From the NCBI GenBank assembly GCA_963796215.1, contig CAWCKU010000001.1, positions 127,032-191,031 on the forward strand: a DNA stretch of 64,000 nt. The letters run 5' to 3'. Source of the DNA: an uncultured delta proteobacterium (lineage in GTDB: Bacteria > Desulfobacterota > Desulfobaccia > Desulfobaccales > 0-14-0-80-60-11). The notes under the pieces were generated by a model. It did not search any database and had not been told where the DNA came from. It worked only from the letters and a program-made list of their open reading frames with translations. Shown one piece after another: positions 14,793 through 61,096 of this stretch (its first letter is position 1; every line of letters begins with the position of its first letter). The translations under genes and the position numbers were made by a program.

Positions 14793-15984
14793 TTGGGGGA
14801 TAAGCAAGTATCTTACGAGAGGAATGGCCAGCACCTCGTTTTCCGCCTGAACCGGATCACTATCAAAAGCAGGCTGTGGGGCGCTTCGGCCCTGATACTG
14901 CTGCTTTTCCTGGCCTTTGGGCTGTTCTCCCTTTACGAAATGCGGAAATTGGACCGCCTCACCTGGGAGCTGTACAACCACCCCTTCCAAGTCTCCAATG
15001 CAGCCCTGCGGGCCTGCATAGGGGTCAGCAACATGCAAAACAGCGTCCGACAGGCCATCATGGCCCGTTCTGACTCAGAGATAGCCGTGGCAGTCCAGGA
15101 GGTCCGGGAAGCCGAGCGCATGGCCTTTGACAACCTGGAGGTGGTCCGGGACAGAATTCTTGGCCTTGAGGGCAAGAGGCTGGAACAAGAATCCCGGGAC
15201 CTGCTGGATAGCCGGGTTAAAGTCAACAGGGAAATTGTGCAATTGCTCCAGCCGGGAAATAAAGCGGCGGTCATCGCCCTGGACCTGGGTCCTGGAGATG
15301 CATGATGCACCGCCTGGAGCAGAAGCTCCTGGAGTTGCGGGATTACGCCGGGAATAAAGCCAAGGGCTTCATGGATAACGCCGTCGAGCAACAGCAACGC
15401 ATTTTCTGGAGTACCATCATATTCATGGTAGTTGCGGCGCTGCTGGCTTTTATAGGAAACTTGAAACTCCAAGAAGCCCTGCGTCATCAGGCCATCCGGG
15501 ACCCCCTTACGGGGTTGTTCAACCGGCGCTTTATGTTGGAGACCCTGGAGCGGGAACTTTACCGGATGCAGCGCAAAGGGTCCTCCCTGTGTGTCATCAT
15601 GTTTGATATGATCATTTTAAAAGGTTTAACGACACCTTCGGCCATTCGGCCGGGGATACCTTGTTGAGCGCCTTGGGCAGGTTGTTGCTCAACCAGGTGC
15701 GCAAGGAGGATGTAGTGTGCCGGTATGGCGGTGAAGAGTTCACCCTGATCCTGCCTGAGACTTCTCTGGAGACCGCTTGTGCCCGGGCTGAAGAGTTACG
15801 CCAAATGGTCCACGGCCTGCACTTGGAACATCGAGGCCAGAGTCTGGGAGGGATCACCATTTCCCTGGGAGTGGCGGTTTATCCTAAGCAAGCGGAGAAC
15901 CCGGAATCCCTCCTGGGGGCCGCTGACAAGGCCCTCTACCAGGCCAAACACGCTGGCCGAGACCAGGTGGTGGTGAGCGGATAG
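14793..15984 (+). CDS. Diguanylate cyclase (GGDEF) with N-terminal membrane-bound helical sensor, two frame disruptions
   Basis: Pieces 14793-15305, 15302-15667 and 15661-15984. Two TM segments flank a helical periplasmic region. DPLTGLFNRR, MFD(M)DHFKRFNDTFGHSAGD (restored by 1 nt near 15610) and RKEDVVCRYGGEEFTLIL (RxxD I-site plus GGEEF) are present. Confidence 0.85.
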
Positions 15985-16130: not shown

Positions 16131-17103
16131 TCAGGGTCTCCCGGGTCCAGAGGCGGTGCTGGTGTGCTCAGCCTGGCGCTCGTCACAGGGCTCATGGCCG
16201 CAGATGGGGCACTCCGGGTCCGTACAGGGGTCGGCGTGGATGAGGATGTCCGCCTCACCTTCAAAGTGGTCACTCAGGATCTTCTCCAGTTTTTTGATCT
16301 CGTCGTGGCTGGCCTCCAGGCCGAGGTCCCGGGGCAAAATCAGATGGAAGTCCATGAAGACACGATGACCGGAGCGCCGGGCCCGAAGCTGGTGGACGTC
16401 GATCCACATCTCCCGGCGATTTCGAGCGATAACTTCGCAGATCTCCTGCAATAACTCAGGGTCGGAGGTGTCCAGGAGGGCCGCGGAAGATTGATGGACC
16501 AGCCGGGCGCCGGTGAACAGGATGTTGAAACCCACCAGGTAGGCCACGGCGCCGTCCAGCCAGTTCCAGCCGGTGAACATGACCCCGATGAGGCCCAGGA
16601 CAACCCCGATGGTGGTGAAAACGTCGGTGAGGACGTGCTTGCCGTCGGCCACCAGGACAATGGAGCGGGTGCGTTTGCCCACCATCACCAGGGCCAGGCC
16701 CAAAATGAGATTGACTACGCGCCGCGCCCAGCACCAGGAGGATACCGCTGGTCAGCCGGGGAATCGCCTGGGGGTGAAAGAGCCGGGGCCAGGCCTCATA
16801 AAAGATCCCCAGGGCCGCCAGGATGATCAGGGCCCCTTCGAAACCGGCGGAAAAATATTCGATCTTGCCGTGGCCGTAAGGGTGGGACGGATCGGGGCTG
16901 CGGGCCGCGAAGATGATGCTGCCGAGGGCGAAGCCGGCGGCCACCACGTTGATGATGGACTCCAGGGCATCGGAGAGGATGGCGGCGGAGTCCGTCAGGT
17001 AAAAGGCGAGGAATTTCACGGCCATCAACCCGGCGCCGACAACCAGGGAGGTGATGATGGCAATGAGGCGGTGCTTGTGGTTGGTGGTGGCCGATGAGTT
17101 CAT
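16131..17103 (-). CDS. Cation diffusion facilitator (CDF) family transporter, one frame disruption
   Basis: Pieces 16456-17103 and 16131-16703 contain SDALESIINVVAAG, HPYGHGKIEYFSAG and LTDVFTTIGVVLGL, then a cytoplasmic domain and a Cys/His-rich tail HADPCTDPECPICGHEPC. Frame change near 16700-16740. Confidence 0.85.
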
Positions 17104-17535: not shown

Positions 17536-17797
17536 GTGCCCTCTTACAGAATTGAGTTAAAACCGGCGGCAGCGGCGCGGACTGAGCAAGTTACCCCAAG
17601 TAGTGCAGAAACGCATCGCCCGCAAGATCGGGGTTCTCGCCCGGAATCCCCGCCCGCCCGGAGTGGAAAAACTCAAGGGCCTATCCGACCTGTATCGCTT
17701 GCGAGTCGGCGATTACCGCATTCTGTATCAAATTCAAGAGAAGATTCTCTTGGTGTTGGTGGTGCAAGTGGGGCACCGAAGAGAAATCTATGAATAA
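17536..17797 (+). CDS. Type II toxin, RelE/ParE family, one frame disruption
   Basis: GTG 17536 gives VPSYRIELKPAAA.., joining 17603-17797 ..QKRIARKIGVLARNPRPPGVEKLKGLSDLYRLRVGDYRILYQIQEKILLVLVVQVGHRREIY. Frame change near 17575-17605. Confidence 0.8.
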
Positions 17798-17812: not shown

Positions 17813-18145
17813 TTATTCATACTGTTTCCGTAGGTGAATAAAAAAGGTCTCCCGCAGGAACTTACTCATCAAGATCATCCCGCCATCGCCCTGGGAAGCA
17901 AAGAGCTGCAAGTCAAACTCTTCATCCGGAAACCAATCGGTGGTGAAGACCAAGCCGGTATCGGTTAAGCGGATGGTGATCTGCGCGTCGTCCGCCACCT
18001 CCTGGGGCCAGGCCAGATAGGCGCTAAAGCTCAAGGACTCCGAACTGGAAACGATACTGATTTTCTTGGACTCCCAAATTTCATACTGGTTTTCGGCAAA
18101 GCCGGACAGCCAGTAGAGGGTGATGTAGAGTAGGTCCTCAAACAT
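17813..18145 (-). CDS. Hypothetical protein, 110 aa, no recognisable domain
   Basis: The ORF is intact. Sampled lines look lower in G+C than the neighbours. TTGACT-17-TAAATT lies about 50-80 nt upstream on the minus strand. The SD is weak. Confidence 0.5.
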   Translation of the reverse strand: MFEDLLYITLYWLSGFAENQYEIWESKKISIVSSSESLSFSAYLAWPQEVADDAQITIRLTDTGLVFTTDWFPDEEFDLQLFASQGDGGMILMSKFLRETFFIHLRKQYE

Positions 18146-18266
18146 AGTTACCCGGATATTTGTGAAAAATGGTGCAAGTCCAGGCTTAAAATTTATGGGA
18201 GCCCTGGAAATAAGTCAAGGAATTTTGGCACTAACGGGGTGGCGACGAGTAGGACGGATGCTCGGG

Positions 18267-18297
18267 AAAAAAAGGGGCGCCGGTGGAGGCCGGCGCC
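18267..18297 (-). terminator. Intrinsic terminator (second of two in tandem)
   Basis: Minus strand reads GGCGCCGG-cctcca-CCGGCGCC, then CC, then U7. Confidence 0.6.
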
Positions 18298-18363
18298 GTT
18301 AAGGGTTTATGGTACACTTGGAGGGTTATTCGTTATGGGCGGCAACGCTTCAGGCGGCCGCAC

Positions 18364-18473
18364 AAAAAAGCCGGATTGCCCTGATTCCAGGCAACCCGGC
18401 TGTCTCATCGGCAAGATGGGCGAGACCCGTGGCTTTCCGTCCCCACCTCACGATGGGTTTGGCTTTTGCTTGG
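18364..18473 (-). ncRNA. Candidate GEMM-I cyclic-dinucleotide riboswitch (c-di-GMP-I class) with overlapping intrinsic terminator
   Basis: Minus strand reads CCAAGCAAAAGCCAAACCCAUC-GUGA-GGUGGGGACGGAAAGCCACGGGUCUCGCCCAUCUUGCCGAUGAGACAGCCGGGUUGCCUGG. It shows a GNRA-capped hairpin, the ACG(C/G)AAAGCC junction, a second hairpin and an AGCCGGGUUGCC closing strand. This parallels the remembered Vc2 aptamer (GGGCAAACCAUUCGAAAGAGUGGGACGCAAAGCCUCCGG...GGUAGCGGGGUUACC). The terminator is AGCCGGGUUGCC / GGCAAUCCGGCU + U6 at 18364-18401. Confidence 0.6.
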
Positions 18474-18478
18474 GACGC

Positions 18479-18508
18479 AGTCTACCTGAAAGTTTAATAA
18501 GTTGTCAA
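18479..18508 (-). promoter_or_regulatory. Sigma-70-like promoter for the riboswitch transcript
   Basis: Minus strand has TTGACA (18508-18503), an 18-nt spacer and TAGACT (18484-18479). It lies about 40 nt after the uppP stop. Confidence 0.4.
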
Positions 18509-18548: not shown

Positions 18549-19379
18549 TTAGGCGGAAGGGTAAAAAAAGGCCAGGGCCAGGATGAGGGCGGCTAGGATC
18601 AGCCGATATACCGCGAAGGGAATGAAGGTGTGGCGTTGCAGGAAGCGCAGCAGGTATTTGATGGTCAGGTAGCTGGAGATCACCGCGGCCAGGAAGCCCA
18701 CCACGGCGGGCAGCAGCGTCAGTTCACCACTGGCGCTTTCCTTGAGCCACTGGGGGATATGATGCAGGCCGGCGCCGGCGATGATGGGGGTGGCCAGGAG
18801 GAAGGAAAAGTGGGCGGCGGAACGGCGGTTGAAGCCCAGGAAAAGGCCCGTGGTCATGGTGATGCCGCTTCTGGAGACCCCGGGCATGATGGCCAGGGCC
18901 TGGGAGAGGCCGATGAGAAAGGCGTCCTTCAAGGTGATTTGGTCCAGGCGGCGGAGGTGCCGGGCGAGTTTTTCCGCCAGGATCAGGAGGAGCCCGACGC
19001 TGCCCAGGAGGATGGCGATGCGGACCGGCTCCCGGAAGATGGTTTCGGCCCTTTTCTCCAGGAGCACTCCGGCGATGGCTCCGGGAATGACGGCAATGAT
19101 AAGAAAGAAGAGCAGACGGCGCTCCGGGCGGTTATAGCGGGAAGGTGAGATGAAGGCGTGGGCCATATCCAGCCACTCCCGGTAGAAGTAGCCGATGAGG
19201 GCCGCCAGGGTGCCCACATGCAGGAGGATATCGAAGCTCAAGCCGCCACCGGTCACGTGAAAGTAATGTTCCAGGAGGGCCAGATGGGCGGAACTGGAGA
19301 TGGGCAGAAATTCGCTGATGCCCTGGACTAGGCCGAGTAAGAGAGCCGTTAGGGGATGCATGGTGGCAAAATGTATCAC
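18549..19379 (-). CDS. uppP: Undecaprenyl-diphosphate phosphatase
   Basis: MHPLTALLLGLVQGISEFLPISSSAHLALL.., eight TM segments, GVSRSGITMT motif. The true start may be the ATG at 19361. Confidence 0.9.
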   Translation of the reverse strand: MIHFATMHPLTALLLGLVQGISEFLPISSSAHLALLEHYFHVTGGGLSFDILLHVGTLAALIGYFYREWLDMAHAFISPSRYNRPERRLLFFLIIAVIPGAIAGVLLEKRAETIFREPVRIAILLGSVGLLLILAEKLARHLRRLDQITLKDAFLIGLSQALAIMPGVSRSGITMTTGLFLGFNRRSAAHFSFLLATPIIAGAGLHHIPQWLKESASGELTLLPAVVGFLAAVISSYLTIKYLLRFLQRHTFIPFAVYRLILAALILALAFFYPSA

Positions 19380-61020: not shown

Positions 61021-61096
61021 GGGGATGTAGCTCAGCTGGAAGAGCGCCTGCTTCGCATGCAGGAGGTCAGGGGTTCAAGTCCCCTCATCTCCACCA
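61021..61096 (+). tRNA. tRNA-Ala (anticodon CGC), CCA encoded
   Basis: Acceptor GGGGATG/CATCTCC includes the G3:U70 Ala identity pair. D arm is GCTCAGCTGGAAGAGC. Anticodon stem-loop is CCTGC-TTCGCAT-GCAGG. T arm is AGGGGTTCAAGTCCCCT. The 3' end is ACCA. Confidence 0.95.

What the first reader, a model, noticed from the sequence alone, without database searches (positions are those of the whole stretch)
17813..18508. Candidate GEMM-I cyclic-dinucleotide riboswitch sharing a strand with a terminator, ahead of an unknown 110-aa gene
About 40 nt after the uppP stop on the minus strand, TTGACA-18-TAGACT precedes an RNA that follows my recollection of the GEMM-I fold segment for segment. It has a GNRA(GUGA)-capped hairpin CCCAUC/GGUGGG, the junction GACGGAAAGCC (consensus ACGCAAAGCC), a second hairpin GUCU..CAUC-uugcc-GAUG-AGAC, and the closing strand CAGCCGGGUUGCC. 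That closing strand is also the left arm of an intrinsic terminator (AGCCGGGUUGCC/GGCAAUCCGGCU + U6). Aptamer and terminator therefore look mutually exclusive, which suggests ligand-dependent antitermination. Downstream lie a second terminator (18267-18297), a promoter-like TTGACT-17-TAAATT, and a 110-aa ORF with no domain I recognise. The regulated target is therefore unclear and could be an undescribed effector. The 5' junction is A-rich (AAAAGCC versus GGGC in Vc2). As I recall, that is the region separating cGAMP-selective GEMM-Ib from c-di-GMP aptamers in Geobacter relatives. The window also encodes a GGDEF cyclase, CdaA and a class III cyclase.
Basis: partly seen in the sequence, partly recalled or inferred. 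Interest (0 to 1): 0.7.

Follow-up and report, generated by a model that had tools for sequence, protein, structure and literature searches.

The report
Cyclic-di-GMP riboswitch with unclear output
This is a real RNA switch of a well-known class that senses the bacterial signal c-di-GMP, but it opens onto a short conserved non-coding stretch closed by a second stop signal, so it probably does not control the neighbouring 110-aa gene.

Summary
Window 18386-18472 (-) is a GEMM-I / c-di-GMP-I aptamer (Rfam 73 bits, E 2e-15). It has its own promoter-like site (18508-18479). A 13-bp/U6 terminator, T1 (18401-18364), has its 5' arm entirely inside the aptamer. That is the anatomy of a ligand-dependent antitermination (ON) switch.

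The best Rfam label is the 'GGC' variant (RF03167), but the defining G47 is an A here. The pocket reads G20/A47/C92, the canonical c-di-GMP pocket. The cGAMP idea (A20) is not supported.

The target is the weak point.
- ORF110 belongs to a conserved family (151 homologues, lipocalin-like beta-barrel, usually paired with a cation-efflux gene).
- It has its own strongly conserved promoter.
- None of 29 genome loci carries the riboswitch, nor do several metagenome loci.
- The module (promoter, aptamer, T1, 64-nt spacer, T2) occurs only in a narrow Desulfobaccales-related clade: the window, five further loci, and one contig that starts inside it.

Within that clade the aptamer core is invariant. 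The spacer keeps a 22-nt, predicted single-stranded core with an invariant AACCCUCCAAGUG. T2 is always retained.

Most likely reading: c-di-GMP gates a short non-coding RNA extension. Control of ORF110 by read-through of T2 is the main rival. This is a new member of a known kind.

The parts
18479..18508 (-). Promoter-like site P1 (TTGACA-18-TAGACT). It would start transcription at about 18473-18471, the first bases of the aptamer.
   Evidence: 10 of 12 consensus positions. The -35 box, the -10 box (TAGATT) and the spacing are conserved in L034 and L159.
18386..18472 (-). GEMM-I / c-di-GMP-I aptamer. Pocket residues: G20 equivalent at 18463, A47 equivalent at 18436, C92 equivalent at 18391. GUGA tetraloop at 18451-18448.
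   Evidence: RF03167, 73 bits, E 2.2e-15, full-length match. (orthologue L038 hits RF01051 at 52.9 bits, gathering score 35). Aptamer identity is 76/77 to both L034 and L038. The core columns are invariant in 6 loci.
18364..18401 (-). Intrinsic terminator T1, the expression platform: 13-bp stem, 7-nt loop, U6. Its 5' arm (18401-18389) lies wholly inside the aptamer, covering the 3' strand of P2, the junction that includes C92, and the 3' strand of P1.
   Evidence: -24.2 kcal/mol; leader minimum free energy with T1 -46.2, against -25.4 when the aptamer pairs are enforced. Intact in L034, L159, L161 and L160; weakened in L038.
18298..18363 (-). Conserved non-coding spacer between T1 and T2. It has a small hairpin (18361-18339), then a predicted single-stranded stretch holding a 22-nt conserved core AUAACGAAUAACCCUCCAAGUG (18336-18315). 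The 13-mer AACCCUCCAAGUG (18327-18315) is invariant in 7 loci.
   Evidence: No conserved ORF: a 1-nt deletion in L160 and different stop codons. No Rfam family. Found only in orthologous loci.
18267..18297 (-). Intrinsic terminator T2: 8 G-C pairs, 6-nt loop, then CC and U7.
   Evidence: -18.3 kcal/mol. The stem is invariant in all 7 module-bearing loci. It is also present in L035, which lacks the riboswitch and has a different upstream gene.
18190..18218 (-). ORF110's own promoter-like site P2 (TTGACT-17-TAAATT), with a conserved A-rich block just upstream.
   Evidence: Nearly invariant in all ORF110 loci aligned, with or without the riboswitch.
17813..18145 (-). ORF110, a conserved 110-aa protein of unknown function. 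The predicted fold is an 8-stranded lipocalin-like beta-barrel. It is probably not the dedicated target of the switch.
   Evidence: 151 homologues. (no family hit). (pLDDT 87, pTM 0.80). (best PDB matches are lipocalins, E 8e-3, TM 0.52). (usually followed by a cation-efflux gene).
18549..19379 (-). uppP (undecaprenyl-diphosphatase), the last gene of the cdaA-ybbR-uppP cluster. No terminator separates it from the riboswitch, so operon read-through would also end at T1 or T2.

Best explanation
This is a genuine class-I c-di-GMP riboswitch working as a transcriptional ON switch.

Shown by the sequence and tools:
- A sigma-70-like promoter sits about 7 nt before the aptamer.
- The aptamer carries the canonical G20/A47/C92 pocket, a GNRA tetraloop and the nucleotides of the C44-G83 interhelical pair.
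- All 13 nt of the 5' arm of terminator T1 lie inside the aptamer.

Inferred mechanism: without ligand, the more stable T1 hairpin plus U6 forms and the transcript ends after about 108 nt. With c-di-GMP bound, the aptamer holds that strand, T1 cannot form, and the polymerase continues.

Inferred output: read-through adds a 64-nt conserved non-coding segment and then meets a second, conserved intrinsic terminator, T2. The main ligand-dependent product would therefore be an RNA of about 205 nt, built as aptamer, T1 region, small hairpin, single-stranded core with a CCCUCC motif, and terminator hairpin with U-tail. This looks like a riboswitch-gated small RNA rather than ORF110 mRNA. ORF110 is expressed from its own conserved promoter downstream of T2.

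The module was gained in one narrow Desulfobaccales-related lineage, between uppP and the T2-ORF110 unit.
For: Identity:
- Rfam 73 bits, E 2.2e-15.
- Orthologues score 72 bits (L034) and 52.9 bits against RF01051 (L038).
- The same 20-nt core occurs in at least 120 metagenome contigs. Among 98 distinct 5' halves, position 20 is G in 91, 90 have GNRA loops, and each P1b pair is canonical in 92-98% with 4-6 pair types.

Pocket:
- In the alignment, model position 10 is G, position 37 is A, and the junction reads GC before the 3' strand of P1.
- The G-to-A spacing of 27 nt matches Vc2 G20/A47, Vc1 G12/A39 and Bc1 G11/A38.
- The roles of G20, A47 and C92 are taken from PMC5888326 and PMC6140456.

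Switch:
- Coordinates and energies of T1.
- L105 is a typical relative with the same overlapped terminator, followed directly by a Shine-Dalgarno site and ATG.

Output:
- T2 is kept in all 7 module-bearing loci.
- Fraction of variable alignment columns: aptamer core 0-8%, spacer core 19% (13-mer invariant), against 42-46% in the flanking non-coding DNA.
- The spacer core is unpaired in the single-sequence and consensus folds.
- There is no conserved ORF in the spacer.

ORF110 independence:
- Its promoter is conserved in loci with and without the riboswitch.
- None of 29 genome loci carrying ORF110 homologues has a GEMM-I hit.
- L030, L031, L035, L036 and L162 lack it.

The window also encodes a GGDEF protein with GGEEF and FNDTFGH motifs, the canonical c-di-GMP cyclase type by my own knowledge.
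Against: - There is no expression data. TSS, termination efficiencies and ligand binding are all inferred.
- Conservation of the spacer rests on 7 closely related sequences with no covariation. Its excess conservation is only suggestive: roughly P about 6e-4 for the 22-mer before correction for multiple windows, by my own estimate.
- In T2 the U-tract starts 1-3 nt after the stem in every orthologue (2 nt in the window), and in L160 it is only U5. T2 may therefore be leaky and some transcripts could reach ORF110.
- T2 also exists in L035 without the riboswitch. It may simply be an insulator in front of ORF110's promoter rather than the 3' end of a dedicated RNA.
- No target of the putative small RNA was found in the 64-kb window.
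- In L038 the 3' arm of T1 has decayed (-19.6 against -26.3 kcal/mol).
Confidence: 0.5

Rival explanations
1. This is a dual-terminator leader of ORF110 (and, in relatives, the ORF110-CDF pair). c-di-GMP opens T1, a fraction of polymerases read through the imperfect T2, and this adds a c-di-GMP-dependent input to a gene that also has its own promoter. The comparison is the Bc1 riboswitch of Bacillus thuringiensis, which has two terminators in a long expression platform.
For: - ORF110 is the next gene on the same strand, 219 nt after T1.
- Precedent exists for a GEMM-I switch with two rho-independent terminators and about 220 nt between the aptamer domain and the downstream start codon (PMC11218506).
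- The U-tract of T2 is offset 1-3 nt from the stem, and is short in L160.
- The module always sits in front of ORF110 in the clade that has it.
Against: - T2 is a strong 8-G-C hairpin whose stem is invariant in all module-bearing loci. Selection for control of ORF110 would be expected to erode it.
- ORF110's own promoter is conserved everywhere.
- The riboswitch is absent from 29 genome loci and from L030, L031, L035, L036 and L162.
- No antiterminator pairing with the 5' arm of T2 is evident in the spacer.
- In Bc1 the second terminator masked the c-di-GMP response (abstract).
Confidence: 0.28
2. The aptamer senses something other than c-di-GMP: either 3'3'-cGAMP, or the unknown or altered ligand of the 'c-di-GMP-I-GGC' variant that gives the best Rfam score.
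For: - The best-scoring model is RF03167.
- The scaffold (C-G flipped pair, ACGGAAAGCC) is the deltaproteobacterial flavour that, from my recollection of the Gs1761 sequence, also hosts the Geobacter cGAMP switches.
- Some natural GEMM-I and GEMM-Ib RNAs are bispecific (PMC6140456).
Against: - Position 20 is G, not A.
- Position 47 is A, not the G that distinguishes the RF03167 consensus (ACGC-G-AAgCc) from the RF01051 consensus (ACGC-A-AAgCc).
- Aptamers with the identical A47 core are assigned to RF03167, RF03168 or RF01051 almost interchangeably, so the clan label does not read out the pocket.
- Wild-type Vc2, which has G20, binds cGAMP with a KD of only 10 uM, against a picomolar KD for c-di-GMP (PMC6140456).
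- The window's GGDEF carries FNDTFGH, not the Ser of Hypr GGDEF cGAMP synthases (own knowledge).
Confidence: 0.12
3. The module has no dedicated downstream output. Either it is a stranded copy of a riboswitch whose original gene was lost, with the spacer as a leftover leader, or it acts only as the conditional 3' end of the cdaA-ybbR-uppP transcript, choosing between T1 and T2 as the 3'-UTR end.
For: - uppP has no terminator of its own before T1.
- The module is lineage-specific and sits between two independently functional units.
- T1 is decaying in L038.
- Riboswitches that bind ligand but do not change downstream expression are discussed in PMC11218506.
Against: - Aptamer identity is 76/77 to L034 and L038, while flanking non-coding DNA differs by about 10-15% and ORF110 by about 5-6% at the nucleotide level.
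- The aptamer core is invariant out to the locus whose ORF110 is 83% identical (L160).
- A well-placed promoter is conserved in front of it. These points indicate continued selection on a transcribed, ligand-binding RNA.
Confidence: 0.1

Closest known systems
c-di-GMP-I (GEMM-I) riboswitch, Rfam RF01051; reference Vc2 of Vibrio cholerae
   Same: Same fold by covariance model, the G20/A47/C92 pocket, a GNRA tetraloop, and a three-helix junction. A terminator-overlap expression platform is the usual design in relatives such as L105.
   Different: The base pair next to G20 is flipped (C-G instead of G-C), a flavour shared by at least 120 metagenome contigs. No ORF follows the expression platform; a conserved non-coding spacer and a second terminator follow instead.
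c-di-GMP-I-GGC variant, Rfam RF03167 (from Weinberg et al. 2017, PNAS; paper not held, cited from memory)
   Same: It is the highest-scoring model (73 bits, above the gathering score of 59), with a very similar scaffold and a short P2.
   Different: The residue that defines the variant, G at the A47 position (model position 37), is A in the window and in all orthologues. It should not be filed as this variant.
GEMM-Ib / c-AMP-GMP (3'3'-cGAMP) riboswitches of Geobacter, e.g. Gs1761
   Same: Same overall fold and the same deltaproteobacterial-type scaffold. These are also ON switches built on terminators.
   Different: They have A at the G20-equivalent position (A14 in Gs1761; PMC6140456). The window has G. 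Only 5 of 98 related aptamers recovered here have A there.
Bc1 c-di-GMP-I riboswitch of Bacillus thuringiensis, with a dual terminator (PMC11218506)
   Same: A GEMM-I aptamer followed by two rho-independent terminators, with a long distance to the next start codon (about 220 nt there, 241 nt here from the aptamer end).
   Different: In Bc1 the terminators are 28 bp apart inside one expression platform, with no promoter in between. Here they are about 66 nt apart (T1 U-tract end to T2 stem start) around a conserved single-stranded core, and the downstream gene has its own conserved promoter after T2.
Riboswitch-linked small RNAs: the Vc2-dependent upstream sRNA in V. cholerae (bioRxiv 10.1101/617340); the AdoCbl-gated EutX/Rli55 and the SAM riboswitch sRNAs SreA/SreB (own knowledge)
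   Same: A ligand-binding aptamer decides the form or abundance of a non-coding RNA rather than of an mRNA.
   Different: For Vc2, the paper's title says the riboswitch regulates an upstream small RNA by controlling RNA stability; only the title and the start of the abstract were read here. In the present case c-di-GMP would extend the transcript into a downstream seed-like segment, more like EutX, which to my knowledge has not been described for c-di-GMP. The small-RNA function here is unproven.

Membership tests
c-di-GMP-I riboswitch (GEMM-I, RF01051 / clan CL00126) | Covariance-model score at or above the curated gathering score | tested here: met
   RF03167 scores 73.0 bits (gathering score 59). 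One further clan member also passed its own gathering score, but the tool hides which one. The orthologue L038, 76/77 identical over the shared part, scores 52.9 bits on RF01051 (gathering score 35).
c-di-GMP-I riboswitch (GEMM-I, RF01051 / clan CL00126) | Ligand-contacting G20 (pairs with G-alpha) | tested here: met
   G at model position 10 (window 18463), immediately 5' of the two-pair stem. It lies 27 nt before the A47 equivalent, as in Vc2, Vc1 and Bc1.
c-di-GMP-I riboswitch (GEMM-I, RF01051 / clan CL00126) | A47 (stacks between the two bases of the ligand) and C92 (Watson-Crick pair with G-beta) | tested here: met
   A at model position 37 (18436). C sits in the two-nucleotide junction GC between the 3' strands of P2 and P1 (18391). 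Mapping C92 to that junction rests on my knowledge of the Vc2 structure.
c-di-GMP-I riboswitch (GEMM-I, RF01051 / clan CL00126) | GNRA tetraloop on the first hairpin, and the interhelical C44-G83 pair | tested here: met
   GUGA loop at 18451-18448. The C of GGGGAC and the G of the unpaired AG before the 3' strand of P2 are both present. The pair is described as universally conserved in PMC4744006. Formation of the tertiary contact itself cannot be tested.
c-di-GMP-I riboswitch (GEMM-I, RF01051 / clan CL00126) | Selective, high-affinity binding of c-di-GMP | not testable with these tools
   Needs in-line probing, ITC or DRaCALA.
c-di-GMP-I-GGC variant (RF03167) | G in place of A47 (consensus ACGC-G-AAgCc) | tested here: not met
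   The window reads ACGG-A-AAGCC. Model position 37 is a mismatch in the alignment. The same holds in L034 and in all orthologues.
c-AMP-GMP riboswitch (GEMM-Ib) | A at the position equivalent to Vc2 G20 (A14 of Gs1761) | tested here: not met
   G in the window and in the orthologues that cover the position: L034, L159 and L160. The criterion is taken from PMC6140456.
Transcriptional ON riboswitch (ligand-dependent antitermination) | An intrinsic terminator whose 5' arm is also an essential aptamer strand | tested here: met
   The 5' arm of T1 (18401-18389) lies inside the aptamer (18472-18386). T1 is -24.2 kcal/mol, and the terminator state is the minimum-free-energy fold of the leader.
Transcriptional ON riboswitch (ligand-dependent antitermination) | A regulated coding gene directly downstream of the expression platform | tested here: not met
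   Between T1 and ORF110 lie a non-coding spacer, the strong terminator T2 and a separate conserved promoter. The association with ORF110 is absent in most genomes.
Riboswitch-gated small RNA | A conserved non-coding segment with its own terminator and a single-stranded conserved core | tested here: inconclusive
   The core 18336-18315 is conserved (13-mer invariant in 7 loci), unpaired in the folds, and T2 is conserved. However, there are only 7 close relatives, no covariation, and no Rfam family.
Riboswitch-gated small RNA | Detected transcript and trans targets | not testable with these tools
   No expression data are available. The complementarity scan of the 64-kb window gave only a chance-level hit.

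The most novel reading that the evidence does not exclude
c-di-GMP controls, by antitermination, the synthesis of a trans-acting small RNA. Only when the ligand is bound does the transcript acquire the conserved single-stranded segment AUAACGAAUAACCCUCCAAGUG, which resembles an anti-Shine-Dalgarno sequence, together with a terminator and U-tail. That segment could then pair with ribosome-binding sites of other mRNAs. It would be a second-messenger-to-sRNA relay not described for GEMM-I riboswitches, and it would be independent of ORF110.
Probability: 0.22. Interest if true: 0.6.

Novelty: new member of a known kind. Interest (0 to 1): 0.35.

Why it matters
As a riboswitch it is ordinary: GEMM-I is among the commonest classes, and this flavour is abundant in sediment and soil metagenomes. 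Three points have some value.

1. It is a clean example showing that the Rfam clan label (GGC, UAU or canonical) cannot be read as a ligand call. The pocket nucleotides must be inspected.

2. It shows a riboswitch module gained recently between two autonomous transcription units. This warns against annotating the next ORF as the regulated 'effector'.

3. If the T1-T2 segment is a functional RNA, it would link c-di-GMP directly to small-RNA regulation in uncultured Thermodesulfobacteriota. This can be tested with a short in vitro transcription template and metatranscriptomes.

Tried and rejected
- The Weinberg et al. 2017 paper that defines the GGC variant is not held. The definition of 'GGC' therefore rests on comparing the two Rfam consensus lines and on memory.
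- I tried to expose the hidden RF01051 score for the window by searching a 5'-truncated stretch. RF03167 still won, at 57.2 bits. L038 serves as a proxy.
- The exact window protein (P0001) is not on record for a contig look-up, so the source genome could not be searched for paralogous aptamers.
- Small ORFs in the spacer are rejected. None has a Shine-Dalgarno site, the frame is broken by a 1-nt deletion in L160, and the stop codons differ.
- An Rfam E-value search of 18100-18385 gave only chance matches: ncS025 at 19.6 bits against a gathering score of 46, and suhB/mmgR at 15.7 against 41.
- BLAST of the spacer against all 160 or so loci found it only in orthologues, so there is no sign of a mobile or repeated element.
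- The scan for complementarity to the spacer core in the window gave one 3-mismatch hit, which is chance level.
- My crude script for distance to the next ORF and for counting terminators missed ORF110 because of its weak Shine-Dalgarno site, and it requires perfect stems. It is used only for the position-20 tally, which was redone properly.
- A first regex register for the P1b covariation count was wrong and was corrected.
- A profile of ORF110 against PDB sequences gave nothing significant (E 0.22). The structure search gives only a fold-level resemblance to lipocalins.
Full report
OBSERVATION

- uppP (18549-19379) is identified by Pfam BacA at 4.7e-78.
- The consensus scan finds TTGACA-18-TAGACT at 18508-18479 and TTGACT-17-TAAATT at 18218-18190.
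- It also finds two intrinsic-terminator-like sites. T1 has its stem at 18401-18369 (13 bp) followed by U6. T2 has its stem at 18297-18276 (8 G-C pairs) followed by CC and U7.
- These scans alone are not above chance: 2 found against about 1 expected for each.
- The Rfam scan of the whole window gives a full-length hit at 18472-18386 (-) to clan CL00126: 73.0 bits, gathering score 59, E 2.2e-15. A second clan member also passes its own gathering score.

WHICH GEMM-I, AND WHICH LIGAND

The best-scoring model is RF03167 ('c-di-GMP-I-GGC'), not RF01051. The two consensus lines printed differ at one pocket position. RF01051 reads GACGC-A-AAgCc and RF03167 reads GACGC-G-AAgCc. The window reads GACGG-A-AAGCC.
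- The pair next to the pocket is flipped from G-C to C-G, with compensation on the 5' side (AAAG-CC-AAACC).
- The following nucleotide is A. It is scored as a mismatch to RF03167 position 37.
- The G just 5' of the two-pair stem (18463) lies 27 nt before that A (18436). This is the spacing of G20/A47 in Vc2, G12/A39 in Vc1 and G11/A38 in Bc1.
- The junction between the 3' strands of P2 and P1 is GC, which supplies the C92 equivalent (18391).

The pocket is therefore G20/A47/C92, the canonical c-di-GMP pocket. In the literature, G20 pairs with G-alpha, C92 pairs with G-beta, and cGAMP-selective GEMM-Ib RNAs carry A at position 20 (PMC5888326 and PMC6140456).

The Rfam label is not a reliable read-out of the pocket. 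Aptamers that all contain the identical core GGGACGGAAAGCC, and hence A47, are assigned to RF03167, RF03168 or RF01051 almost interchangeably. The orthologue L038, which is cut at its 5' end, is assigned to RF01051 at 52.9 bits against a gathering score of 35.

This flavour of the aptamer is very common. Among 98 distinct 5' halves:
- position 20 is G in 91 and A in 5;
- the flipped CC partner is present in 96;
- 90 have GNRA loops;
- each of the four variable P1b pairs is canonical in 92-98% of sequences, with 4-6 pair types.

The window also encodes a GGDEF protein with GGEEF and FNDTFGH motifs. By my own knowledge this is the canonical diguanylate-cyclase type.

EXPRESSION PLATFORM

The 5' arm of T1 (18401-18389) lies entirely within the aptamer. 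It covers the 3' strand of P2, the junction containing C92, and the 3' strand of P1.
- T1 alone folds at -24.2 kcal/mol.
- The Rfam-consistent aptamer fold is -22.7 kcal/mol.
- The leader's minimum-free-energy fold contains T1 (-46.2), against -25.4 when the aptamer pairs are enforced.

The default state is therefore termination, and a ligand-stabilised aptamer would prevent it. This is an ON switch. A close relative of the aptamer, L105, shows the ordinary version of the design: promoter, aptamer, overlapped terminator, about 90 nt, AAGGAGG, ATG.

WHAT IS DOWNSTREAM

Here the design departs from the ordinary. After T1 come three things: a 64-nt spacer, then the strong terminator T2, then a second promoter, and only then ORF110.

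ORF110 is a real, conserved protein.
- It has 151 homologues at E <= 0.01, all from Desulfobaccales, Thermodesulfobacteriota or 'delta proteobacterium' MAGs where a name is given.
- It has no Pfam or NCBIfam family.
- AlphaFold2 with 59 sequences gives a confident all-beta model of 8 strands, pLDDT 87 and pTM 0.80.
- The best PDB neighbours are lipocalins, at fold level only: apoM at E 8e-3, TM 0.52.
- Its most constant neighbour is a cation-diffusion-facilitator (CDF) gene immediately downstream. uppP is directly upstream in only some genomes.

The riboswitch is not a conserved partner of ORF110.
- None of 29 genome loci with ORF110 homologues has any GEMM-I hit within 4 kb. L001 has too little upstream sequence to count.
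- Metagenome contigs L030, L031 and L036 (80-81% protein identity) have uppP followed by a short intergenic region with no aptamer, no T1 and no spacer.
- L162 (83%) has only 29 nt between ORF110 and the upstream gene.
- L035 (93%) has a different upstream gene and lacks the aptamer, T1 and the spacer. It keeps T2 and the ORF110 promoter.
- The ORF110 promoter block (GCCAAAA-TCCTTGACTTATT...CTCCCATAAATTT...TTGCAC..TTTTTCACAAA) is nearly invariant in every locus aligned, with or without the riboswitch.

ORF110 is therefore an autonomous transcription unit, and T2 behaves as a terminator or insulator in front of it.

The complete module (P1, aptamer, T1, spacer, T2) is present in the window and in L034, L159, L161, L038 and L160, whose ORF110 is 83-94% identical to the window's. 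L161 and L038 are cut at the 5' end. Contig L001 (95%) begins just after T1 and carries the spacer and T2. The spacer is found nowhere else among the roughly 160 loci fetched. Parsimony favours gain of the module in one narrow lineage, with loss by rearrangement in L035.

SELECTION WITHIN THE MODULE

Pairwise against the window:
- aptamer: 76/77 identical in both L034 and L038;
- P1 region: 71/80;
- T2-to-P2 stretch: 85-89%;
- ORF110 DNA: 94-95%.

Across the 6-7 module-bearing loci, the fraction of variable alignment columns is as follows:

| Segment | Variable columns |
|---|---|
| Aptamer core segments | 0-8% |
| Variable inner P2 hairpin | 30% |
| T1 3' arm | 33% (mostly L038, where T1 is weakened to -19.6 kcal/mol) |
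| Spacer core | 19% |
| Spacer 3' end, T2-to-P2 stretch, ORF110 5' UTR | 42-46% |

Within the spacer, the 22-mer AUAACGAAUAACCCUCCAAGUG (18336-18315) varies at two columns, and the 13-mer AACCCUCCAAGUG is invariant in 7 loci.
- Single-sequence and consensus folds place a small hairpin (18361-18339) before it and leave the core unpaired between that hairpin and T2.
- There is no covariation, because there are too few and too similar sequences.
- The spacer has no conserved reading frame and no Rfam match.
- The T2 stem is invariant. Its U-tract starts 1-3 nt after the stem (2 nt in the window) and is only U5 in L160.

MOST LIKELY MECHANISM

Shown:
- a canonical c-di-GMP-I aptamer;
- its overlap with T1;
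- the conservation pattern;
- the autonomy of ORF110.

Inferred:
- P1 starts transcription at about 18472.
- Without c-di-GMP the RNA ends at T1 (about 108 nt).
- With c-di-GMP it extends through the conserved spacer and ends at T2 (about 205 nt).

The ligand-dependent product would then be a non-coding RNA with the layout of a small RNA: structured 5' part, single-stranded conserved core with a CCCUCC motif, and a terminator with U-tail. I put about 0.5 on this overall picture. Within it, aptamer identity is about 0.95, c-di-GMP as ligand about 0.8, and the ON switch about 0.8. The weakest link is 'output is an ncRNA rather than ORF110'.

Rivals:
- A dual-terminator leader that feeds some transcription into ORF110 and the CDF gene, as in Bc1 (PMC11218506; in Bc1 the second terminator masked the c-di-GMP response). 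Confidence 0.28.
- A different ligand. Confidence 0.12. This question is independent of the output question.
- No dedicated output: a stranded riboswitch, or merely the conditional 3' end of the uppP operon, which has no terminator of its own before T1. Confidence 0.1. This is disfavoured by the strong conservation of the aptamer and of P1.

COMPARISON AND NOVELTY

By every sequence criterion I could test, this is a member of the c-di-GMP-I class. It fails the defining residue of the GGC variant and of GEMM-Ib.

The closest architectural precedents are three:
- Bc1, with two terminators;
- the Vc2-dependent upstream small RNA (bioRxiv 10.1101/617340);
- from my own knowledge, the AdoCbl-gated EutX/Rli55 non-coding RNA.

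A c-di-GMP ON switch that gates a downstream small RNA would be a new variant, but the evidence here is only suggestive. I therefore file the finding as a new member of a known kind, with interest 0.35.

Noticed in passing
L065 (558-1022, -), L107 (1026-1359, -), L110 (3809-4124, -), L143 (106-495, +): Back-to-back arrays of GEMM-I aptamers spaced only 75-150 nt apart, with no terminator between copies. At least 4 copies are visible in L065, L107 and L110 (core 20-mer matches plus Rfam hits), and the contigs end inside the arrays. The tandem-riboswitch survey PMC9481103 reports 347 doublets and 12 triplets of c-di-GMP-I and nothing larger.
   Followed up: partly
window 15302-15984 (+), 16131-17103 (-), 17536-17797 (+): Three neighbouring genes each appear split by a frameshift: a GGDEF cyclase (VIMFD | YDHFKRFNDTFGH...GGEEF), a cation-efflux CDF gene and a ParE toxin. 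L161 carries an intact 86-aa ParE at the same place. This suggests indel errors in the assembly, perhaps from long reads, or recent pseudogenisation. The riboswitch sequence itself is corroborated by independent contigs L034 and L159.
   Followed up: partly
L039-L158 (subset: L065, L077, L087, L105, L107, L110, L143): Rfam clan competition assigns aptamers with the identical A47-containing core variously to RF03167 (GGC), RF03168 (UAU) and RF01051. The variant labels are therefore not a dependable guide to pocket identity or ligand.
   Followed up: yes
L098, L099, L145, L149, one copy in L110: Aptamers with the same core but A at the G20-equivalent position (xACCAAACC). They are candidate cGAMP-type or bispecific GEMM-Ib members in metagenomes.
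   Followed up: no
window 18146-18230 (-) and the equivalent region in L001, L030-L038, L159-L161: The ORF110 promoter region is unusually conserved beyond the -35 and -10 boxes. It has an invariant GCCAAAA block upstream and TTGCACC.TTTTTCACAAA downstream of the -10 box, even at 80% protein identity. This could be an operator or a 5'-UTR element for the ORF110-CDF unit.
   Followed up: no
window 17813-18145 (-) and L002-L038: ORF110, predicted as a lipocalin-like 8-stranded beta-barrel with no signal peptide evident, is followed directly by a cation-diffusion-facilitator gene in at least 20 loci. This suggests a functional link to metal efflux. In the window and in L161, a Phd/ParE toxin-antitoxin pair is inserted between the two genes on the opposite strand.
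   Followed up: partly
L011 3684-3827 (-): A c-di-AMP riboswitch (RF00379, 85 bits) lies divergent from the ORF110 homologue and leads an amino-acid-permease-family transporter. It is an ordinary c-di-AMP target and is not linked to ORF110.
   Followed up: yes
L077 6434-7103 (+): Three GEMM-I riboswitch-plus-terminator units lie at intervals of about 290-300 nt; the last two are near-identical. This looks like a recent local duplication of whole riboswitch units.
   Followed up: no
window 61021-61093 (+): A tRNA gene (Rfam 69.8 bits), the only other Rfam hit in the window.
   Followed up: no
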